Shown here piece by piece: positions 1,151 to 59,408 of a stretch of 64,000 bases of DNA. Positions within the stretch are counted from its first letter, which is position 1. Each line of letters starts with the position of its first letter. The DNA lies in assembly GCA_964016885.1 (NCBI GenBank), contig OZ024765.1, positions 7,936,001 through 8,000,000 of the forward strand. The letters are read 5' to 3'. This DNA comes from Eledone cirrhosa. Taxonomy: Eukaryota. Made by a program: the position numbers and the translations under genes. The notes beneath the pieces are model-generated. The model made no database searches and was not told where the DNA came from. It saw nothing but the letters and a program-made list of their open reading frames with translations.

Positions 1151-2600
1151 ATAAGTCTACACTTGCAGTCCCCACCTAAATACAGACTTGTGAGAAATAT
1201 AACTACATCAATATGAAATTTGTAACAAAATAATCACTTTTCTATGTAAATTGAAATATAATTTTATAAAGATATTAAAATTGTTTTATTGGAAATCTTG
1301 AAATTATATTTTTTGTATCAAAATCTGTTCACAATTGAAAAGATTTTATAACAAAATATTGTTTAATAAATTTATCTTTCTCTCTCTAAATAAACTTTTC
1401 AGTGTTCTTAACAATTTTTCTGACATGAATAAAACCAGCGACATATTTTAATATATTTATTGTTTTAATAGACACCCTAATTTAGAGTAAACTTCATAAT
1501 CTACATCTATTTTATCAACACCATATGTAAACCTCCATTGTTCCCCTACTAAACAAAGAACTGTTTAGTGTTGGTTGTCAGTCTGTCTAGAATAAGGGTC
1601 ACTCTGATATCAAAATCTGGATAGATGGGGCTCCTTTGTCACTTAGGTGACAACCTTTCAAGTAACCAACAACCTTTTCTTGGTGATAAAGGGGGACAAC
1701 TGTGACTTGGTAGCCAGCTTCCGGGTAAGGGCCAGGCGAGGTTTAGGGACTCACCAACGTTACTTTTTTTAACGTGAGGAGAAACATGGACATTCAGCAA
1801 CATGTAGTTGAACATTGATGCAATTGTCCATAGTCCCTGACCCTCAGCAGTGAGGGTGGGATCTCTCATCATCATCATCATCATCATGTAATGATATCAC
1901 ACAGGAAGTATTTTAAATACATTCAACGTAAACATTTCTTGGCAATTTAAAATGTTTAAAATTTCTGTCACACTTCGTTGATGTAAAAAAGTGAAATATT
2001 AGAATATTTGAGAATCCGAAAGTTATAAGAGTTACTTCTAGTTCTGATGGTGTCGTTGACTCCCTAACGTAAAGTAAGGCTAATACTTTAAATTTAAACT
2101 TAATCAAAGAAAGAAATTGATTAATTATCGATCTCATGATCTAATTGGTTACTGCTAATGTTCCAAATTCTGTTAAAAAGACATTCCAACCATGACCATC
2201 AGGTATATTTTGTATATCTAGACTAAAATAACCAATATCCAATATGTACTTCATTTAATAAGATGATGGGGGTGAAATTTGAGGAGTCATTTGACTGTTA
2301 TTTCTAGCAGGTTCAGACCCCTGTATAGCCATCCTACATGATACATATTAGTAGTTATTTTGTTATTTACCATGGGTTGGATACAATTCGAGATGTTTCT
2401 GAATGTATTAAAATATCGCAGGATATTATTTTGATATGACACCGGTATCATTTAGTAGAGGGAAATATTTTCAACGTAACCAGGCACATGTTTTCTTTTA
2501 TAATTAGCTTTAATCCAGTTATATAAACAGAGTCCCAGGATATCTAAGACAAAAAACTGTATTATAATATATTATAATTAGATAATTCTCGGAAATTACT

Positions 2601-3662
2601 ATGGAGGATGTTAAACACTTGGACATTTCTAACACAACTGCGTTTAACAATATAGATACAGTTACACAGACATACAGTGGTGAGAAACCTTTATCTAATG
2701 AAACGTTTACTGAAAAAACATCGTTACACGGAAATATTCCTGAATATTTTTGTGAGATTTGTAAAAAAACTTTCTCTTCAGCAGATGAAGTCATCACACA
2801 CACATTAACACACAAGATTGAGAAACCTTACCACTGTGAAATATGTGGGAAATATTTTGCCAGTAAGAAATATTTAACACAACACGAAAGAACACACACT
2901 GGAGAGAAACCATACCATTGTGAAATATGTGGGAAATCTTTTGTTTTTAATTCAATGCTTGTTATCCACAGACGTACACACACTGGAGAGAAACCTTTCC
3001 ACTGTGAGATATGTGGCAAATCTTTTGCCAATAATGGTCATTTAAAAATACACATAAGAACACACACTGGAGAGAAACCTTACCACTGTGAGATATGTCG
3101 CAAATCTTTTGCCCGTAAAGCTCATTTAAAAATACACATAAGAACACACACTGGAGAGAAACTTTACCACTGTGAGATGTGTAGAAAATCTTTTGCCAGT
3201 AAGAATTATTTAAAAATACACATAAGAATACACACTGGAGAGGATCTATTTTATTGTGAGATATGTGCGAAATCTTTTATAAATAATTCACAACTTGTTA
3301 TCCACAGACATACACACACTGGAGAGAAACCTTTTCACTGTCAGATATGTGGAAAATCTTTTGGTAGTAATGATAAATTAAAAATACACATAAGAACACA
3401 CACTGGAGAGGAACCTTACCACTGTGAGATATGTGACAAATCTTTTGGCAGTAATGATAATTTAAAATTGCACATAAGAACACATACTTGTGAGAAACCT
3501 TACCACTGTGAAATATGTGGCAAATCTTTTGGCCGTAATGATAATTTAAAAATACACATAAGAACACACACTGGAGAGGAACCTTACCACTGTGAGATAT
3601 GTGGCAAATCTTTTGGTAGGAGTTCTTCTTTAACAAGACACAAAAGAACACACACTGGATAA
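2601..3662 (+). CDS. C2H2 zinc-finger protein, 11 tandem fingers (353 aa)
   Basis: Intact ORF with 11 CxxC-x12-HxxxH repeats and TGEKP linkers. No KRAB, SCAN or BTB domain visible. AATAAA at 3694. Confidence 0.92.
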   Translation: MEDVKHLDISNTTAFNNIDTVTQTYSGEKPLSNETFTEKTSLHGNIPEYFCEICKKTFSSADEVITHTLTHKIEKPYHCEICGKYFASKKYLTQHERTHTGEKPYHCEICGKSFVFNSMLVIHRRTHTGEKPFHCEICGKSFANNGHLKIHIRTHTGEKPYHCEICRKSFARKAHLKIHIRTHTGEKLYHCEMCRKSFASKNYLKIHIRIHTGEDLFYCEICAKSFINNSQLVIHRHTHTGEKPFHCQICGKSFGSNDKLKIHIRTHTGEEPYHCEICDKSFGSNDNLKLHIRTHTCEKPYHCEICGKSFGRNDNLKIHIRTHTGEEPYHCEICGKSFGRSSSLTRHKRTHTG

Positions 3663-12750: not shown

Positions 12751-13340
12751 AAAAATGTAATAAAATTTCCACTGTTAAATCTTTACATTTTAAGTCTCCT
12801 CCATATCTTATAGAGTTTCTTTATTATTTCAGAATATCAGCGGACATTGGTAGAAGAGAATTGTTTAACTAAAGGAAGATCTTATACAGAACAGATATAA
12901 CCCTGTTTATATAAATATCTGGTTGAATTACACTGATTTCCTCTAATCTGAGATTAAAAACATTTCTCTACTTCACTGCCTGGAATGTAACTTAACTAAA
13001 CACAAATATATCCCCTCTCAACAGAAGCCATACTACTGTGGTTAACCCCTCATATATAAATCTTTTCTCTACTTCACAACCTGGAATGTGTACAACATAA
13101 ATTCACATTCTCATTAAACTTGGACAAATTTACAAAAAGATTTTCCCAGCATCTTCAGATATCAACAAAGATCACAGTTGATGGAAATGTAGCTGGAGAA
13201 ATATTTGTTTGGAATATACATATATACATATATATACTCTATTACATTCCAGCCGACATGCTGAGGCCATGCTGGGGCACAAACATTAAATACAAAAACC
13301 AGAAAAATTTCTGAATATTGTGGTGAGAGAAAAACTAGTT

Positions 13341-14942
13341 ATGGAAAACAAATTGTGCAAAAAAAAGGTTAAATGCAAAAAACAGTCTAAGAGGGTTGGT
13401 TTTACTGATCATAGAAAGCAGAAAGATAAAATATACTCCTGTGACATTTGTAAAAAGTCTTTCTCTCAAAAATGTAACCTCAACACTCACAAACGTATTC
13501 ATACAGGAGAGAAACCATATCACTGTGATATCTGTGGTAAATTATTCTCTGAAAGAAACACCTTAACTAAACACAAGCGTATTCACACGGGAGAAAAGCC
13601 ATATCATTGTGATATCTGTGGTAAATCATTCTCTGAACGAAGTACATTAACTAAACACAAACGTATTCATACAGGAGAGAAACCATACCACTGTGATGTC
13701 TGTGGTAAATCATTCACTGAGAAAGGTCACCTAACCACACACAAATACATTCACACAGGAGAAAAACTATATCACTGTGATATCTGCGGTGTATCATTAT
13801 CTAGAAATTATAGCTTGACTATACATAAACGAATACATACAGGAGAGAAGCCATTTCATTGTGATATCTGTGGTAAATCATTCTCTGAAAGGAATAACTT
13901 AACTATACACAAACGCATTCATACAGGAGAGAAACCATATCACTGTGATATCTGTGGTGTATCATTCTCACAAAAGTCTATCCTAACGAAGCATAAACGT
14001 TTTCATACAGGTGACAAGCCATATCACTGTGATGTCTGTGGCAAATCGTTTTCTTCGAGAAGCAACTTAACAACTCATAACCGTATTCATACAGGAGAGA
14101 AGCCATACCACTGTGATATCTGTTTTAAATCATTTACGGTTAAAAGTCAACTAACTGTTCATAGATATATTCATACAGAGGAGAAACCTTATCACTGTGA
14201 TATCTGTGGTAAATCATTCTCTCAAAGTGGTAATTTAGCTAGCCATAGATATGTTCATACAGGAGAGAAGCCACATCACTGTGATATCTGTGATAAATCA
14301 TTTTCTGTAAGTAGTGGCTTAACTACACACAAACGTATTCATACGGGAGAGAAGCCATATCATTGCAATATCTGTGGTAGATCATTCTCTGGAAGTAGTG
14401 GCTTAACTACACACAAACGCGTTCATACAAGAGAGAAGCCATATCACTGTGATGTCTGTGGTAAATCATTTTCACAAAAATCTATATTAACTAAGCATAA
14501 ACGCTTTCATACAGGAGAGAAACCATATCACTGTGATATTTGTGGCAAATTATTCTCTGTAAGTGGTGACTTAACTTTGCACAAACGCATTCATACAGGA
14601 GAGAAACCATATCATTGTGACATCTGTGGTAGATTTTTCTCTCAAAAAAGCCACTTAACGATTCACAGACATGTACATACAGGAGACAAACCATATCACT
14701 GTGATAACTGTGGTAAATTATTCTCTGTGAGAAGTCATTTAACTAAACACCAACATATCCACACAGGAGAGAAGCCATATCACTGTGATATCTGTGGTAA
14801 GTCATTCTCTGGAAGTAGTAGCTTAACCAATCACAAGCGTACTCATACAGGAGAGAAACCATATCACTGTGATATCTGTGGTAAATCATTCTCTCAGTCA
14901 AGTAACTTAACTAAACACAAATACATACACACTGGAGAGTAA
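13341..14942 (+). CDS. C2H2 zinc-finger protein, 18 tandem fingers (~533 aa)
   Basis: Intact ORF with first ATG at 13341, a basic N-terminus and 18 [11 protein letters not shown]-type fingers. Candidate splice acceptor TTATTATTTCAG ends at 12832; AATAAA at 14962. Confidence 0.93.
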
Positions 14943-15078
14943 CAAGACATTATTTAAGCTTAATAAAATGAATATTAAAACTCTATTTTGGTAGTATTGA
15001 GTACTCTTTTCTCTTGGCTCTCAACTACACACACACACACATTCTATATATACGTGTATATATATGTGTGTGTGTGTG

Positions 15079-15416
15079 TCATCATCATTTCATTTTACGT
15101 CCACTTTTCCCTGCTTGCAAGGGTGGGACGGGAACTGATTCTGGCTTGATTTCTACAGCTGGATGCCCTTCCTAACACCAACCTCATTTACAGTGAGTGC
15201 TGGGTGCTTTTTTGCCGTGGCACCTCCACGACCACTTTGCAGTGGAATGATATGGACCCCAGTCCCTATCATCTCATTTCTACAGCTGAGTAAACTGGAA
15301 CAATGTGAAATAAAGTGTCTTGCTCAAGGAAACAACACATCACCCAGTCTGAGAATTGAACTCACAATCTTTCGATTGCAAGGCCAATGCTCTAACCACT
15401 AAGCCATGTGCCTCCA
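15079..15416 (-). mobile_element. tRNA-derived CORE-type SINE, full length
   Basis: A-box TGGCTTAGTGG, B-box GAGTTCAATTC, CORE-like TTCCTTGAGCAAGACACTTTATTTCAC, RTE-like 3' end with (ATG)n tail. Confidence 0.85.
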
Positions 15417-15801
15417 TATATACATGTGTGTATGGGTGTTGAGTGTGTGTGTGTGTGTGTGTGTACCCACTCACACTAACTGACCGTCTATAGTTCTACA
15501 GATTTGATGCGGTGTTGGTATAAGTGTATATATATTTTTTTTCTTTGACCTCGCGTCATGTGTGTGAGTGTGTGTGTGTGTACCCACTCACATTAACTTT
15601 GACCGACTGTAATTCTACAGATTTGATTGATGTCCACCATCTTTTACAGCTATTGGGAGATAGAGACTTGATAGTTTTATGACCCTAACTGAAGACGATA
15701 GCAGTCGCTGTGTTTTGACTGCTTGTTCTTCATATGAGGGACTAAACTCTCTGAGTGAACATTGATAATTTTCTCCCTCATATAAAGAATTTGAAGACAA
15801 T

Positions 15802-15888
15802 TCATTTTCACCTGATGAGATCAGTGATAATCGATCATGGCTTCACGATCGATCTATCTCTTATTGAAACATGTCGTGATTAAAATGA
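15802..15888 (+). ncRNA. Type I hammerhead ribozyme (long helix II, palindromic minimal helix III)
   Basis: TCATTTTCAC-CTGATGA-[47-nt hairpin]-GAAAC-AT-GTC-GTGATTAAAATGA. Helix I complementarity and all core nucleotides are present. Confidence 0.8.
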
Positions 15889-16065
15889 TTGGAAATTTTA
15901 CCTTGCCTTCAGATCTTTATTTTTATATATATATGTATATATATGGGTTGAGGAAGGACAGGCTGTGTGGTTACTGATAATGAGTGTTAGAAGGTAAGGA
16001 GACACAAACAAGAGATGTACCCTCTCCCTTCGTCAGCTGTTTACTACGGGTCATGGATGTTTCAC

Positions 16066-18118: not shown

Positions 18119-18161
<43 letters not shown>
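16066..18161. repeat. (TA)n/(TATC)n microsatellite, ~2.1 kb
   Basis: Directly visible. Confidence 0.95.
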
Positions 18162-18163
<2 letters not shown>

Positions 18164-19946
18164 TGAAGGTCACGGAAAAAGTAATAGCGCAACTAATCAG
18201 AGAGAGAATTGATCTAGATGAAATGCAGTTCGGGTTTGTGTCAGGCAAAAGTACCACAGACGCTCTTTTCATTGTACGACAACTACAGGAGAAGTACCTA
18301 GCTAAAAGTAAACCCCTATACTTAGCTTTCGTCGACTTGGAGAAAGCCTTCGACAGAGTCCCCCGTTCCATTATCTGGTGGTCTCTTAGAAAACTAGGTG
18401 TTGACGAATGGCTTGTGAGAGCTATATAAGCCATGTATAAAGAAACAGTCAGTAAGGTTAGAATTAACAACGAATATAGTGAAGAGTTTAGCGTAAAAGT
18501 TGGTGTCCATCAGGGCTCTGTTCTTAGCCCCCTACTATTTATTATTGCCCTTCAGGCTATAACAGAGGAGTTCAAGACCGGCTGCCCATGGGAACTCCTA
18601 TACGCAGATGATCTAACGCTCATAGCTGAATCAATGACCGAACTAGAGAAGAAATTCCAAACATGGAAGCACGGCCTAGAATCAAAAGGCCTTAAAATTA
18701 ACCTGGCTAAGACTAAAATTCTAGTTTGTAGGAAAGAAAATAAGGCGGCAGTCCCATCTGGGAAATGGCCATGCTCAGTGTGTAGGAAAGGCGTAGGTAG
18801 AAACTCCATTTTATGTCCCAAATGCAAAGTATGGGTGCATAAAAGATGTAGTGGGATCACAGGTAAGCTAACTAAGAACATAGATTTTACATGTGGCCGG
18901 TGCTCTGGTGCAATAAGTAGCAGCAAGTGCCCACAAAATACTAGCTCCTTCAACTGCGCAGAGGGTTCTATAGAAATAGTGGACAGCTTCCGTTACCTGG
19001 GTGACAAAATCAGCAGTGGGGGAGGGTGCTCTGAAAGTACAGTAGCTAGAGTCAGAACTGGATGGAAAAAGTTCAGAGAGCTTATACCACTATTAGCCGC
19101 TAGAGGGTTCTCCCTAAAAATGAAAGGCAGGTTATACGATGCCTGCATACGAACAGCAATGCTGCATGGCAGTGAGACCTGGGCATTGTGTGCAGAGGAT
19201 ATACGCAGACTAGAGAGGAACGAAGCTTGCATGCTCCGCTGGATGTGCAATAGTAATATACGTGAACGGCAAAGCATAAACGAACTAAGGAAAAAATTAG
19301 AAATAAGAGGGATCAGATGTTGTTTACTCGAGAGAAGGCTACGTTGGTATGGACACGTGATGCGCATGAAAGTCGATAGCTGTATAACAAAGTGCAGGGC
19401 AATAAAGATAGACGGTAGCCACGGAATAGGCAGACCTAGAAAAACCTGGGACGAGCTGATAAACTCCGACCTCACACACTTACACCTCTCCAAGACAATG
19501 TCACTGGACCGAGACCTTTGGCGGTACTCAGTAACAGAGAAAACCCGCCTTACCTAAATACATAGTAAAACCTACTACAGCCAGTAGGTATCTCTAACAA
19601 AATACACCCCGTCCCACCACGACCACCCCCACCCCATCCACACCACCCCGTTCTATGTAAAGTTATGTTGGTGCCGCGCCATCCAGGCCGAAACAAATGA
19701 GATCGTGTAGGTGTCACGACAAAAAAACACACAGTCCACGCTGTAATGTGGCCGTGTAGGCAACACGGTAAAAACCTCCCAGCCCCACACTGTAAATGTG
19801 GTTGGTGTTAGGAAGGGCATCCAGCTGTAGAAAACCTGCCAGACAGTCCTATGCGAGCAAGACAACCACTCTTGCCTCAAGTGGGAAAACCCCCGTCCAA
19901 ACCCATGCAAGCGTGGAACACGGACGCTAAACCTGATGATGATGAT
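18162..19946 (+). mobile_element. RTE LINE (subfamily A), 5'-truncated, RT pseudogene
   Basis: QFGF...[48 protein letters not shown]. One premature stop at 18427-18429; 3' UTR with (TGA)n tail. Confidence 0.93.
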
Positions 19947-36678: not shown

Positions 36679-37121
36679 TTAACCCTTTACCATTTACATT
36701 ACTCTATATATACTATTGTATTTTCACAGTAAAGGCTTTACCTCACATAATATCTCACATAACATTTACATTACTCTATATATACTATTGTATTTTCACA
36801 GTAAAGGCTTTACCTCACATAATACCTCACATAACATTTACATTACTCTATATATACTATTGTATTTTCACAGTAAAGGCTTTACCTCACATAATATCTC
36901 ACATAACATTTACATTACTCTATATATACTATTGTATTTTCACAGTAAAGGCTTTACCTCACATAATATCTCACATAACATTTACATTATATATAATTTT
37001 GATATTTATTTTGAGAACAATACCTTAACATCAGTATGAGTGGCCAGTTACAGCCAGTTTGAACAAAAAGATGTGAGAGAATTCTAGCCAGATGTGACCG
37101 GTTTAAATGCTAAAGGGTTAA
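36679..37121. mobile_element. TTAA (piggyBac-like) MITE with four 72-bp internal repeats
   Basis: TTAA|CCCTTTACCATTTA ... TAAATGCTAAAGGG|TTAA; intronic, ~50 bp from a splice donor. Confidence 0.8.
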
Positions 37122-37170
37122 TGATGAGAAAGAAAGGAAGATATAAAGACAAGAAGGAAGTTGTACTTAC

Positions 37171-38254
37171 ATCGTGCATACTGTATTTTGTGCAGCGCTG
37201 TTGTTCGGTCGTTGCTTTGTGCATTGACATTTGCACCTTGCTGCAGCAGAATGTCAACAATGACAGAACTACCGATAGCTGCAGCTTGCAGTAATGGTGT
37301 TTCTTGGTTGGGTGACATGACATGTATATTACACCCAGCTTTCACTAAAGCCAATGTAATTTCTGCTGACTTCCGCGACACAGCTAAGTGGAGAGGGTAG
37401 TCTCCCCGTCTGTTAGGTTGATTGAGATTTATTTCTTCTCTTTCTAAGAGAATCTCGACCATTGGCAGGCTTTTTAATTTGATGGCGTAGTGTAGTGGCG
37501 TTAAACCGAATTTGTCTGTGGCGTTGACGTCAGTTTGGTTGTTGATAAGAACCTGAAGGATTTCTGGTGAGTCGATTTCTATAGCCATGTGTATTGGTCT
37601 TTTATTGTCGACATCTCGTGCCTCTATGTTGGCACCCTTTTCGCAAAGGTATCTCACGACTTCCAGGTGTCCGTTTCGTATAGACTTATGTAATGGGGTC
37701 ATCCCACCTTGCAGTAACAACGTCTGCACTTCTATATTGGCGCGGCCCTCCTCCACCAATATGCTGACCACGTCTAGGTGCCCTGCACCAGCTGCGATGT
37801 GTAGGGCTCTTTCGTCGCTGTGGTTACGTGAAAGGTTCACGTGAGAGCCCTCGTGGACGAGAAAGCGAACGATGTCGGCAAAACCACAACTGCACGCCAG
37901 CAACAAGGGCGTCCGTCCTTCGGAGTCGCATCGATTCAGGACCGAGCCGTTCCTCGCAAGAATCTTCACAAGTTCGAGGTTGTCATTTATGACAGCGTGA
38001 TGTACGGCCTTTTTACCGGTCTCGTCAGCATACATGAGGGAAGGAGCTGTCCGTGAGTCAAGAATCAGTGACTCTACTGCAGCCGTGGAACCATTACGGG
38101 CCGCTAAACACACAGCTTTGTCCAGTTCTAGGCAATGGTAACAGTGGTTCTCTCGACAATATCGCAATATCGTTTCGATACGGCTGATATCATTATTATT
38201 GATGGCTTCATAAAACATATCAATAACAGCCAACATAGTGTTCCCATGTGACAT
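37171..38254 (-). CDS. Ankyrin repeat and SOCS box protein, large ankyrin exon
   Basis: About nine ANK repeats (GRTPLLLAC, ALHIAAGAGH, GMTPLH, GLTPLHYA, GDYPLHLA, QETPL). Donor AT|GTAAGT at 37171, phase 1. First ATG 38254; the frame is open back to the acceptor at 38347, so an upstream start is possible. Confidence 0.92.
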
Positions 38255-38392
38255 TGTTATCAGTTTTAGACTATCTTTATATCTATCTGGGAGGTCAGTA
38301 GAAACTCGTAGGAACACCCGGCCAAACTTTCTTAGCAGGGAAAATGACTGTCAAATGATGATAGAATATAAGTTTATATATATATATATAAG

Positions 38393-58557: not shown

Positions 58558-58600
58558 CTATATATCAAAATGAAAATCTGAAGGCAAGGTAAAATTCCAA

Positions 58601-58689
58601 TCATTTTAATCACGACACATGTTTCAATAAGAGATAGATCGATCGTGAAGCCATGATCAATTATCACTGATCTCATCAGGTGAAAATGA
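58601..58689 (-). ncRNA. Type I hammerhead ribozyme, second copy of 15802-15888
   Basis: Reverse complement with intact core; helix III reads GAAAC-ATGT-GTC (2 nt longer). Confidence 0.8.
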
Positions 58690-59068
58690 ATTGTCTTCAA
58701 ATTCTTTATATGAGGGAGAAAATTATCAATGTTCACTCAGAGAGTTTAGTCCCTCATATGAAGAACAAGCAGTCAAAACACAGCGACTGCTATCGTCTTC
58801 AGTTAGGGTCATAAAACTATCAAGTCTCTATCTCCCAATAGCTGTAAAAGATGGTGGACATCAATCAAATCTGTAGAATTACAGTCGGTCAAAGTTAATG
58901 TGAGTGGGTACACACACACACACTCACACACATGACGCGAGGTCAAAGAAAAAAAATATATATATACATATACCAACACAGCATCAAATCTGTAGAACTA
59001 TAGACGGTCAGTTAGTGTGAGTGGGTACACACACACACACACTCAACACCCATACACACATGTATGTA

Positions 59069-59408
59069 TGGAGGCACATGGCTTAGTGGTTAGAGCATTG
59101 GCCTTGCAATCGAAAGATTGTGAGTTCAATTCTCAGACCGAGTGATGTGTTGTTTCCTTGAGCAAGACACTTTATTTCACATTGCTCCAGTTTACTCAGC
59201 TTTAGAAATGAGATGATAGGGACTGGGGTCCCTATCATTCCACTGCAAAGTGGTCGTGGAGGTGCCACGGCAAAAAAACCAACAGCACTCCCTGTAAATG
59301 AGGTTGGTGTTAGGAAGGGCATCCAGCTGTAGAAATCAAGCCAGAATCAGTTCCCGTCCCACCCTTGCAAGTAGGGAAAAGCGGAGGTAAAATGATGATG
59401 ATGATGAT
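59069..59408 (+). mobile_element. CORE-type SINE, full length
   Basis: Family consensus; shares its head-flanking sequence with 15079-15416. Confidence 0.85.

What the first reader, a model, noticed from the sequence alone, without database searches (positions are those of the whole stretch)
15079..15925. SINE + structured RNA + hammerhead cassette duplicated in inverted orientation 43 kb away (58577-59408)
Seen: the ~850 bp unit, including the SINE and its junction, recurs almost identically on the other strand. The non-SINE part is non-coding and has an internal direct duplication (~15460-15510 and ~15578-15630), two hairpins (TGAAGA..AGCAGTC/GACTGCT..TCTTCA; TATGAGGGA/TCCCTCATA) and a hammerhead with an unusually long helix II. 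Shared sequence stops ~35 nt past the ribozyme, in TA repeats. Inference: a retrozyme-like or Penelope-dependent element that carried an upstream SINE as cargo.
Basis: partly seen in the sequence, partly recalled or inferred. Interest (0 to 1): 0.75.

Follow-up and report, generated by a model that had tools for sequence, protein, structure and literature searches.

The report
Duplicated tail of a Penelope retrotransposon
The hammerhead-bearing piece is the cut-off tail end of a common Penelope-type jumping gene, lying beside a common short repeat, and it was likely copied once to a nearby spot by ordinary DNA recombination; it is not a new mobile cassette.

Summary
The inverted 870-bp repeat is real (96%), but it is not a mobile cassette. 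The non-SINE part (15426-15926) is the 5'-truncated 3' end (pseudo-LTR) of an autonomous Penelope-like retrotransposon with Hydra-clade marks. The genome holds at least 1,113 copies of its ribozyme. Long copies carry a telomerase-like RT plus a GIY-YIG endonuclease 1.3-1.4 kb upstream, and some show pLTR-tail-ORF-pLTR. The hammerhead is the known PLE type I kind, with a long helix II and a palindromic helix III; cleavage is untested. The SINE lies on the opposite strand, head-to-head, and shares its 3' end with a LINE. The SINE/stub junction occurs only twice in 3 Gb, both in this window, and none of 28 other family loci has it. The two stubs are sisters (8 shared rare alleles in 354 sites); the two SINEs share none in 327 (p=0.008) and are identical only over the last 72 nt of the head. 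Best reading: one local ectopic gene conversion, likely anchored in the SINE head, copied about 0.55 kb from copy 2 to copy 1. Ordinary repeat biology.

The parts
15079..15418 (-). SINE copy 1: tRNA-derived head, LINE-like 3' half, (ATG)n tail; young (1 rare substitution)
15345..15408 (-). tRNA-like head of the SINE
   Evidence: Rfam RF00005, 29.8 bits
15347..15418 (.). only SINE stretch identical in both copies; inferred left anchor of the copied tract
15426..15926 (+). 5'-truncated 3' end (3' UTR / pseudo-LTR) of a Hydra-type Penelope-like retrotransposon, copy 1
15443..15627 (+). parts of two ~110-nt tandem units of the element's 3' UTR (the 'internal duplication')
15690..15782 (+). two predicted hairpins, part of the family's pLTR; no covariation support
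15802..15888 (+). type I hammerhead motif (core 15812-15818 and 15866-15875; predicted cut after C15875); helix III shortened to the palindrome ACAUGU in this copy
15927..15943 (.). (TA)n target microsatellite
58564..59059 (-). copy 2 of the Penelope-like stub (hammerhead about 58689-58601); inferred donor
59069..59407 (+). SINE copy 2; older (7 rare substitutions); best genome match among 40 scored is 97%
13290..14942 (+). C2H2 zinc-finger ORF upstream of copy 1; AATAAA at 14962-14967 lies before the SINE
18161..19945 (+). 5'-truncated LINE (RVT_1 + PHD) whose 3' UTR and (ATG)n end align with the SINE's 3' half; likely partner class of the SINE

Best explanation
The hammerhead-bearing part is the 5'-truncated 3' end of an autonomous Penelope-like retrotransposon with Hydra-clade marks, and it stands twice in this window because one local DNA recombination event likely copied it from copy 2 to copy 1. 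Shown: family membership, high copy number, RT and GIY-YIG upstream in long copies, a junction found only in this window, sister stubs, and SINEs with no shared rare allele. Inferred: the stub entered a (TA)n site at locus 2 by the element's endonuclease-primed reverse transcription, and a LINE-mobilised SINE came to lie head-to-head with it. A break at or beside a younger SINE at locus 1 was then repaired on locus 2, 43 kb away. Repair started in the SINE head (15347-15418) and copied about 0.55 kb to the element's end. The ribozyme is a passenger here; in full elements it would process tandem precursor RNA, likely as a dimer or with protein help.
For: 2,083 candidates and 40 of 40 scored matches at 93% or more for 15640-15925. 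1,113 exact copies of a 30-mer of the ribozyme. In L031, L032 and L039 the same end lies below RT and endonuclease ORFs. 8 of 8 loci picked by the RT carry it downstream, and 3 of 8 show pLTR-tail-ORF-pLTR. The RT model (pLDDT 90.8) has telomerase RTs as its top 8 Foldseek hits. The endonuclease model matches I-TevI at Z 8.9, rmsd 2.3 A, 84 aligned, and the atlas names GIY-YIG. Junction pattern: 2 hits genome-wide with up to 2 mismatches. A stub-private 30-mer: 2 hits. 0 of 28 other loci have the SINE at the junction. The stubs are 98.9% alike and sisters at support 0.986. Shared rare alleles: 8 of 354 stub columns vs 0 of 327 SINE columns, Fisher p=0.008. Copy-2-only rare alleles: 7 of 327 in the SINE vs about 1 of 512 in the stub, p=0.007.
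Against: Raw divergence between the copies is not significantly higher in the SINE than in the stub (p=0.06 and 0.31). The 55 comparison SINEs were mostly top hits to one of the two copies, not a random draw. Both outer boundaries coincide with element ends, which a whole-unit copy would also give. Copy 1's last ~15 nt carry main-subfamily alleles (C15915, T15918) that copy 2 lacks, so a second template touched that end. Direction and mechanism rest on allele counts alone; no empty site was seen. Pfam did not recognise the RT or endonuclease pieces.
Confidence: 0.6

Rival explanations
1. Same parts, different history: the whole SINE+stub unit was duplicated once at DNA level between microsatellites, and copy 1's SINE body (and last nucleotides) were later overwritten by gene conversion from other family copies.
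For: The shared stretch ends exactly at the SINE tail and at the element's end. Thousands of SINE donors exist (3,052 candidates). Copy 1's 3' end already looks converted.
Against: It needs one or two extra events. Copy 1's SINE is about as young as the split of the stubs (1 rare allele).
Confidence: 0.25
2. RNA-mediated copy: a read-through transcript of one locus was reverse-transcribed as a unit, either by the Penelope RT (SINE as antisense cargo, the first reader's view) or by the LINE RT from the SINE tail (stub as 5' cargo).
For: Both ends are natural priming ends of a retroelement, and both sites are (TA)n-rich. A sister family at ~62% identity still has open frames of ~890 aa.
Against: A retro-copy would inherit the donor's SINE alleles; none is shared. 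Only 2 junctions exist, 43 kb apart on one contig. Copy 1 has no tandem partner or 'tail'.
Confidence: 0.08
3. Assembly artefact or collapsed haplotype.
For: The region is microsatellite-rich. Contigs of 4 public runs did not span the junction, being fragmented in repeats.
Against: The copies differ at 17 substitutions plus indels and have unrelated flanks on both sides.
Confidence: 0.04
4. An independent non-LTR retrozyme family (tandem, non-coding, circular RNA).
For: Type I hammerhead in a short non-coding repeat.
Against: No direct head-to-tail monomers in 28 loci. The 5' ends are ragged and run on into the RT/EN ORF.
Confidence: 0.03

Closest known systems
Hydra-clade Penelope-like elements, e.g. 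Hydra-1_Obim of Octopus bimaculoides (Craig et al. 2021, PMC8557442; section 11, passages and supplement passages read)
   Same: C-terminal GIY-YIG, RWK, DKT, CxCX5C linker, CxxC and CxH around the conserved E and N, a canonical hammerhead near the 3' end, (TA)n targets, inverted 5'-truncated partners, tails. By eye the printed Hydra-1_Obim protein lines up motif by motif.
   Different: A separate family. The element is ~4.3 kb rather than 'generally <3 kb', with a long insert between RT and linker, a 1.3-1.4-kb stretch from stop codon to ribozyme, and a different ribozyme sequence. Four short motifs of this family were not found in the supplement text held, which has some long runs cut.
Minimal PLE hammerheads (Cervera and de la Pena 2014, PMC4209133; parts 1-2 of 4 read)
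   Same: Type I, in the pLTR, with helix II longer than usual, a small palindromic helix III, mostly single motifs from truncated PLEs, and opposite-strand pairs 100-700 bp apart.
   Different: Helix II here is ~16 bp (7-8 bp in Schistosoma) and starts with G-U then A-U rather than a bulged base plus G10.1-C11.1.
Non-LTR retrozymes (Cervera and de la Pena 2020, PMC7229834, passages; Li et al. bioRxiv 10.64898/2026.07.22.740005, part 1 of 5)
   Same: Type I hammerhead, related to PLE pLTRs.
   Different: Retrozymes are tandem non-coding monomers with at least two ribozymes. This is a single truncated end of a coding element.
Repeat-anchored ectopic gene conversion / local duplication, as with Alu (recalled; only a search listing was seen)
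   Same: A short tract copied between nearby loci, with its ends in repeat homology or microsatellite.
   Different: The anchor here is a tRNA SINE head and the cargo a PLE stub.

Membership tests
EN+ Penelope-like element (parent family) | Telomerase-like RT in one ORF with a GIY-YIG endonuclease | tested here: met
   Top 8 Foldseek hits are TERT; I-TevI Z 8.9; 639-718-aa open stretches running from the RT towards or into the endonuclease. No fully intact copy of this family was seen among those read.
EN+ Penelope-like element (parent family) | Partial-tandem pLTRs, optional tail, inverted 5'-truncated partner | tested here: met
   pLTR-tail-ORF-pLTR in 3 of 8 loci; tail in 11 of 28 and (TA)n-type end in 17 of 28; inverted copy of the end in 10 of 28
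Hydra clade | RWK and DKT motifs in the RT | tested here: met
   RRMRWKAFHF and VHADKTNN in L055, L056, L059, L060; definition
Hydra clade | CxCX5C linker; no CCHH; CxxC and CxH beside the conserved E and N | tested here: met
   CNCRSTATC, CNLCIAE and N...CQH read by eye in L057
Hydra clade | (TA)n insertion and a canonical hammerhead | tested here: met
Hydra clade | Generally short (<3 kb) | tested here: not met
   About 4.3 kb from ORF start to end; the paper gives this as a tendency, not a rule
Hydra clade | Placement in an RT tree with reference PLEs | not tested
   Reference proteins were seen only as cut text in a supplement
Type I hammerhead ribozyme | Core CUGANGA / GAAA / NUH with helices I-III in type I order | tested here: met
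   Intact in both window copies and in 47 of 61 family copies; N7 varies U/C between subfamilies
Type I hammerhead ribozyme | Covariation of the helices | tested here: inconclusive
   96.1% of cells paired but only 1 of 50 pairs changed on both sides, equal to shuffles; the copies are too alike. The sister family has a different-sequence hammerhead at the same place in 6 of 8 loci.
Type I hammerhead ribozyme | Self-cleavage | not testable with these tools
   The core-open monomer fold is -18.8 vs -21.3 kcal/mol for the MFE, and the core is open in about 0.6% of the ensemble
Non-LTR retrozyme | Head-to-tail tandem non-coding monomers, each with a hammerhead | tested here: not met
Non-LTR retrozyme | Circular monomeric RNA | not testable with these tools
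   No raw RNA reads were available to lay
Mobile SINE+ribozyme composite | Dispersed copies sharing the junction and the SINE alleles | tested here: not met

The most novel reading that the evidence does not exclude
Copy 1 is a three-part chimera made in one insertion event. A fresh SINE cDNA and a fresh Penelope 3' end were primed on opposite strands of one (TA)n break, the SINE taking the place of the inverted partner typical of these elements. The gap was then bridged by copying the only nearby locus that matches both ends. This would show SINE/LINE and Penelope machineries sharing one break.
Probability: 0.08. Interest if true: 0.45.

Novelty: new member of a known kind. Interest (0 to 1): 0.12.

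Why it matters
Little. It adds one more Hydra-type Penelope family, with a long-helix-II hammerhead, in what is likely a cephalopod genome (inferred from Argonauta hians homologs), where this clade is already listed. It is also a small example of repeat-anchored local copying next to a zinc-finger gene. It does not show a new mobile unit.

Tried and rejected
Cargo-carrying cassette: rejected. Tandem retrozyme: rejected. A 43-kb inversion with the copies at its breakpoints: I tested whether copy 2's outer flank continues into copy 1's inner flank. It does not; both are ends of unrelated repeats, so an inversion is neither shown nor excluded. A second ribozyme at CUGARGA 15689-15695: no GAAA partner by eye, and the heptamer is broken in the older subfamily. 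Pfam and PDB sequence searches missed the RT and endonuclease. Foldseek on the endonuclease was weak, best E 1.2 to I-TevI. Expression: no RNA holder listed. Contigs of 4 runs showed only that both repeats are abundant and did not bridge the junction. Earlier-findings look-ups by sequence, near place and words returned nothing. The supplements of the other papers were not read, and those of the bioRxiv preprint are closed; they may list this family.

Full report
Observation. The repeat is real. 15079-15944(+) aligns with 59407-58546(-) at 96.0% over 869 columns. The internal repeat, both hairpins (z = -3.6) and a hammerhead core in type I order, with a predicted cut after C15875, are present. 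Rfam at gathering threshold found only a tRNA-like match at 15408-15345 on the minus strand. The SINE therefore reads away from the hammerhead strand: the two parts are head-to-head.

What the non-SINE part is. A search of the own genome with 15640-15925 gave 2,083 candidates; all 40 scored matched at 93% or more. An exact 30-mer of the ribozyme occurs 1,113 times. In 28 other loci the 5' ends are ragged. The 3' end is fixed: 17 of 28 end in (TA)n-type repeats and 11 of 28 run on into a common tail. Ten of 28 have an inverted second copy of the end within the 3.3 kb fetched. Longer copies continue upstream through a long UTR into a coding region. All 8 loci picked by that protein carry the window's piece below the ORF, at 75-81% identity for this older subfamily, and three show pLTR-tail-ORF-pLTR. 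The stop codon lies 1.3-1.4 kb above the ribozyme. Pfam and PDB sequence searches missed the protein. A confident model of its first 477 residues (pLDDT 90.8) has telomerase RTs as its top 8 matches. The C-terminal domain matches I-TevI at Z 8.9, rmsd 2.3 A over 84 residues (Foldseek only weak), and the atlas names GIY-YIG. RWK, DKT, CxCX5C, CxxC-E and N-CxH (read by eye) are the marks that Craig et al. 2021 give for the Hydra clade (section read). Their supplement lists Hydra-1_Obim from an octopus. The piece is thus the 5'-truncated 3' end of an autonomous Penelope-like element. The 'internal duplication', the hairpins and the (TA)n end are all family features.

The ribozyme. The core is intact in 47 of 61 copies. 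Five older-subfamily copies match the young majority at 94.6% over the ribozyme but 82.2% over the hairpins, which suggests constraint in the source elements. Covariation within the family is no better than shuffles (1 of 50 pairs). A sister family at about 62% protein identity has a different-sequence hammerhead about 1.2 kb below its stop in 6 of 8 loci. Long helix II, palindromic helix III, single motifs from truncated elements and opposite-strand pairs are what Cervera and de la Pena 2014 describe for PLE hammerheads, with low activity as monomers (parts 1-2 read). Frangieh et al. 2024 (PMC11167929, parts 1-2 read) found a PLE hammerhead that cuts only with protein and is not needed for insertion in vitro. 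Here the core is predicted open in about 0.6% of the monomer ensemble. Cleavage and expression are untested.

The SINE. It is a young high-copy family (1,024 and 3,052 candidates) and is usually flanked by (TA)n. Its 3' half and (ATG)n tail align with the 3' UTR of an RVT_1+PHD LINE in this window, so a LINE is its likely mobiliser.

Is the pair a unit? No. None of 28 other family loci has the SINE at the junction. The junction pattern with up to 2 mismatches hits twice in 3.0 Gb, both in this window, and so does a stub-private 30-mer. One search shows that the pattern search counts common words in full. The two stubs are sisters: 98.9% against at most 94.7% to 49 others, support 0.986, with 8 shared rare alleles in 354 columns. 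The two SINEs share 0 in 327 against 55 other copies (Fisher p = 0.008). Copy 1's SINE has 1 rare allele and copy 2's has 7, and they are identical only over 15347-15418. Against this reading: raw divergence does not differ significantly between SINE and stub (p = 0.06 and 0.31), and the comparison SINEs were mostly top hits to one of the two copies.

Mechanism. I infer that locus 2 is the old site, where SINE and stub each carry about 2% rare changes. A repair event starting in the head of a younger SINE at locus 1 would have copied about 0.55 kb from it (confidence 0.6). Whole-unit duplication followed by conversion of copy 1's SINE gives the same sequence (0.25). Both are one-off DNA events. 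An RNA-mediated copy predicts shared SINE alleles and is unlikely (0.08). One point is unexplained: copy 1's last ~15 nt carry main-subfamily alleles that copy 2 lacks. A test for an accompanying 43-kb inversion was uninformative.

Verdict. A new family of a known clade, with a known ribozyme type and an ordinary local duplication. Six hammerhead-like core matches lie in this 64-kb window alone, by a loose pattern without a chance control. Earlier scan notes on permuted hammerheads in Naiad elements concern a different topology and clade and were not tested here. Interest 0.12.

Noticed in passing
window 30258(+), 38396(+), 63758(+) and 63738(-): Four further hammerhead-core pattern matches of other sequence; the last two form a head-to-head inverted pair. 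Probably ends of other Penelope-like families.
   Followed up: no
window 15944-16063: End of another repeat family (1,083 candidates) abutting the same (TA)n from the other side, tail-to-tail with copy 1.
   Followed up: partly
window 18161-19751(+) and 22741-21155(-): Two copies of an RVT_1+PHD LINE, 93% alike, facing tail-to-tail 1.4 kb apart. Their 5' ends differ, so they are probably separate insertions.
   Followed up: partly
L143-L150 (G000): Sister Hydra-type family (~62% protein identity) with near-identical copies and open frames of ~890 aa, so probably recently active; its hammerhead has helix III AUAUAU-type and a G-U pair at the base of helix II.
   Followed up: partly
L145:862-1814(+): Three identical small hammerhead matches at 476-bp spacing, a tandem that looks like a true non-LTR retrozyme or PLE tandem; two similar matches 420 bp apart in L146.
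   Followed up: no
window 15689-15695: CUGARGA heptamer (A in 26, G in 23 of 49 copies at the free position) in front of hairpin 1, with no GAAA partner; possibly a decayed second hammerhead.
   Followed up: partly
window 37121-38350(-); 2586-3659(+) and 13290-14939(+): An ankyrin-repeat ORF and two single-ORF C2H2 zinc-finger arrays, of 11 and 18 fingers.
   Followed up: no
L038: A ~4.7-kb direct tandem duplication containing a truncated copy of the element twice.
   Followed up: no
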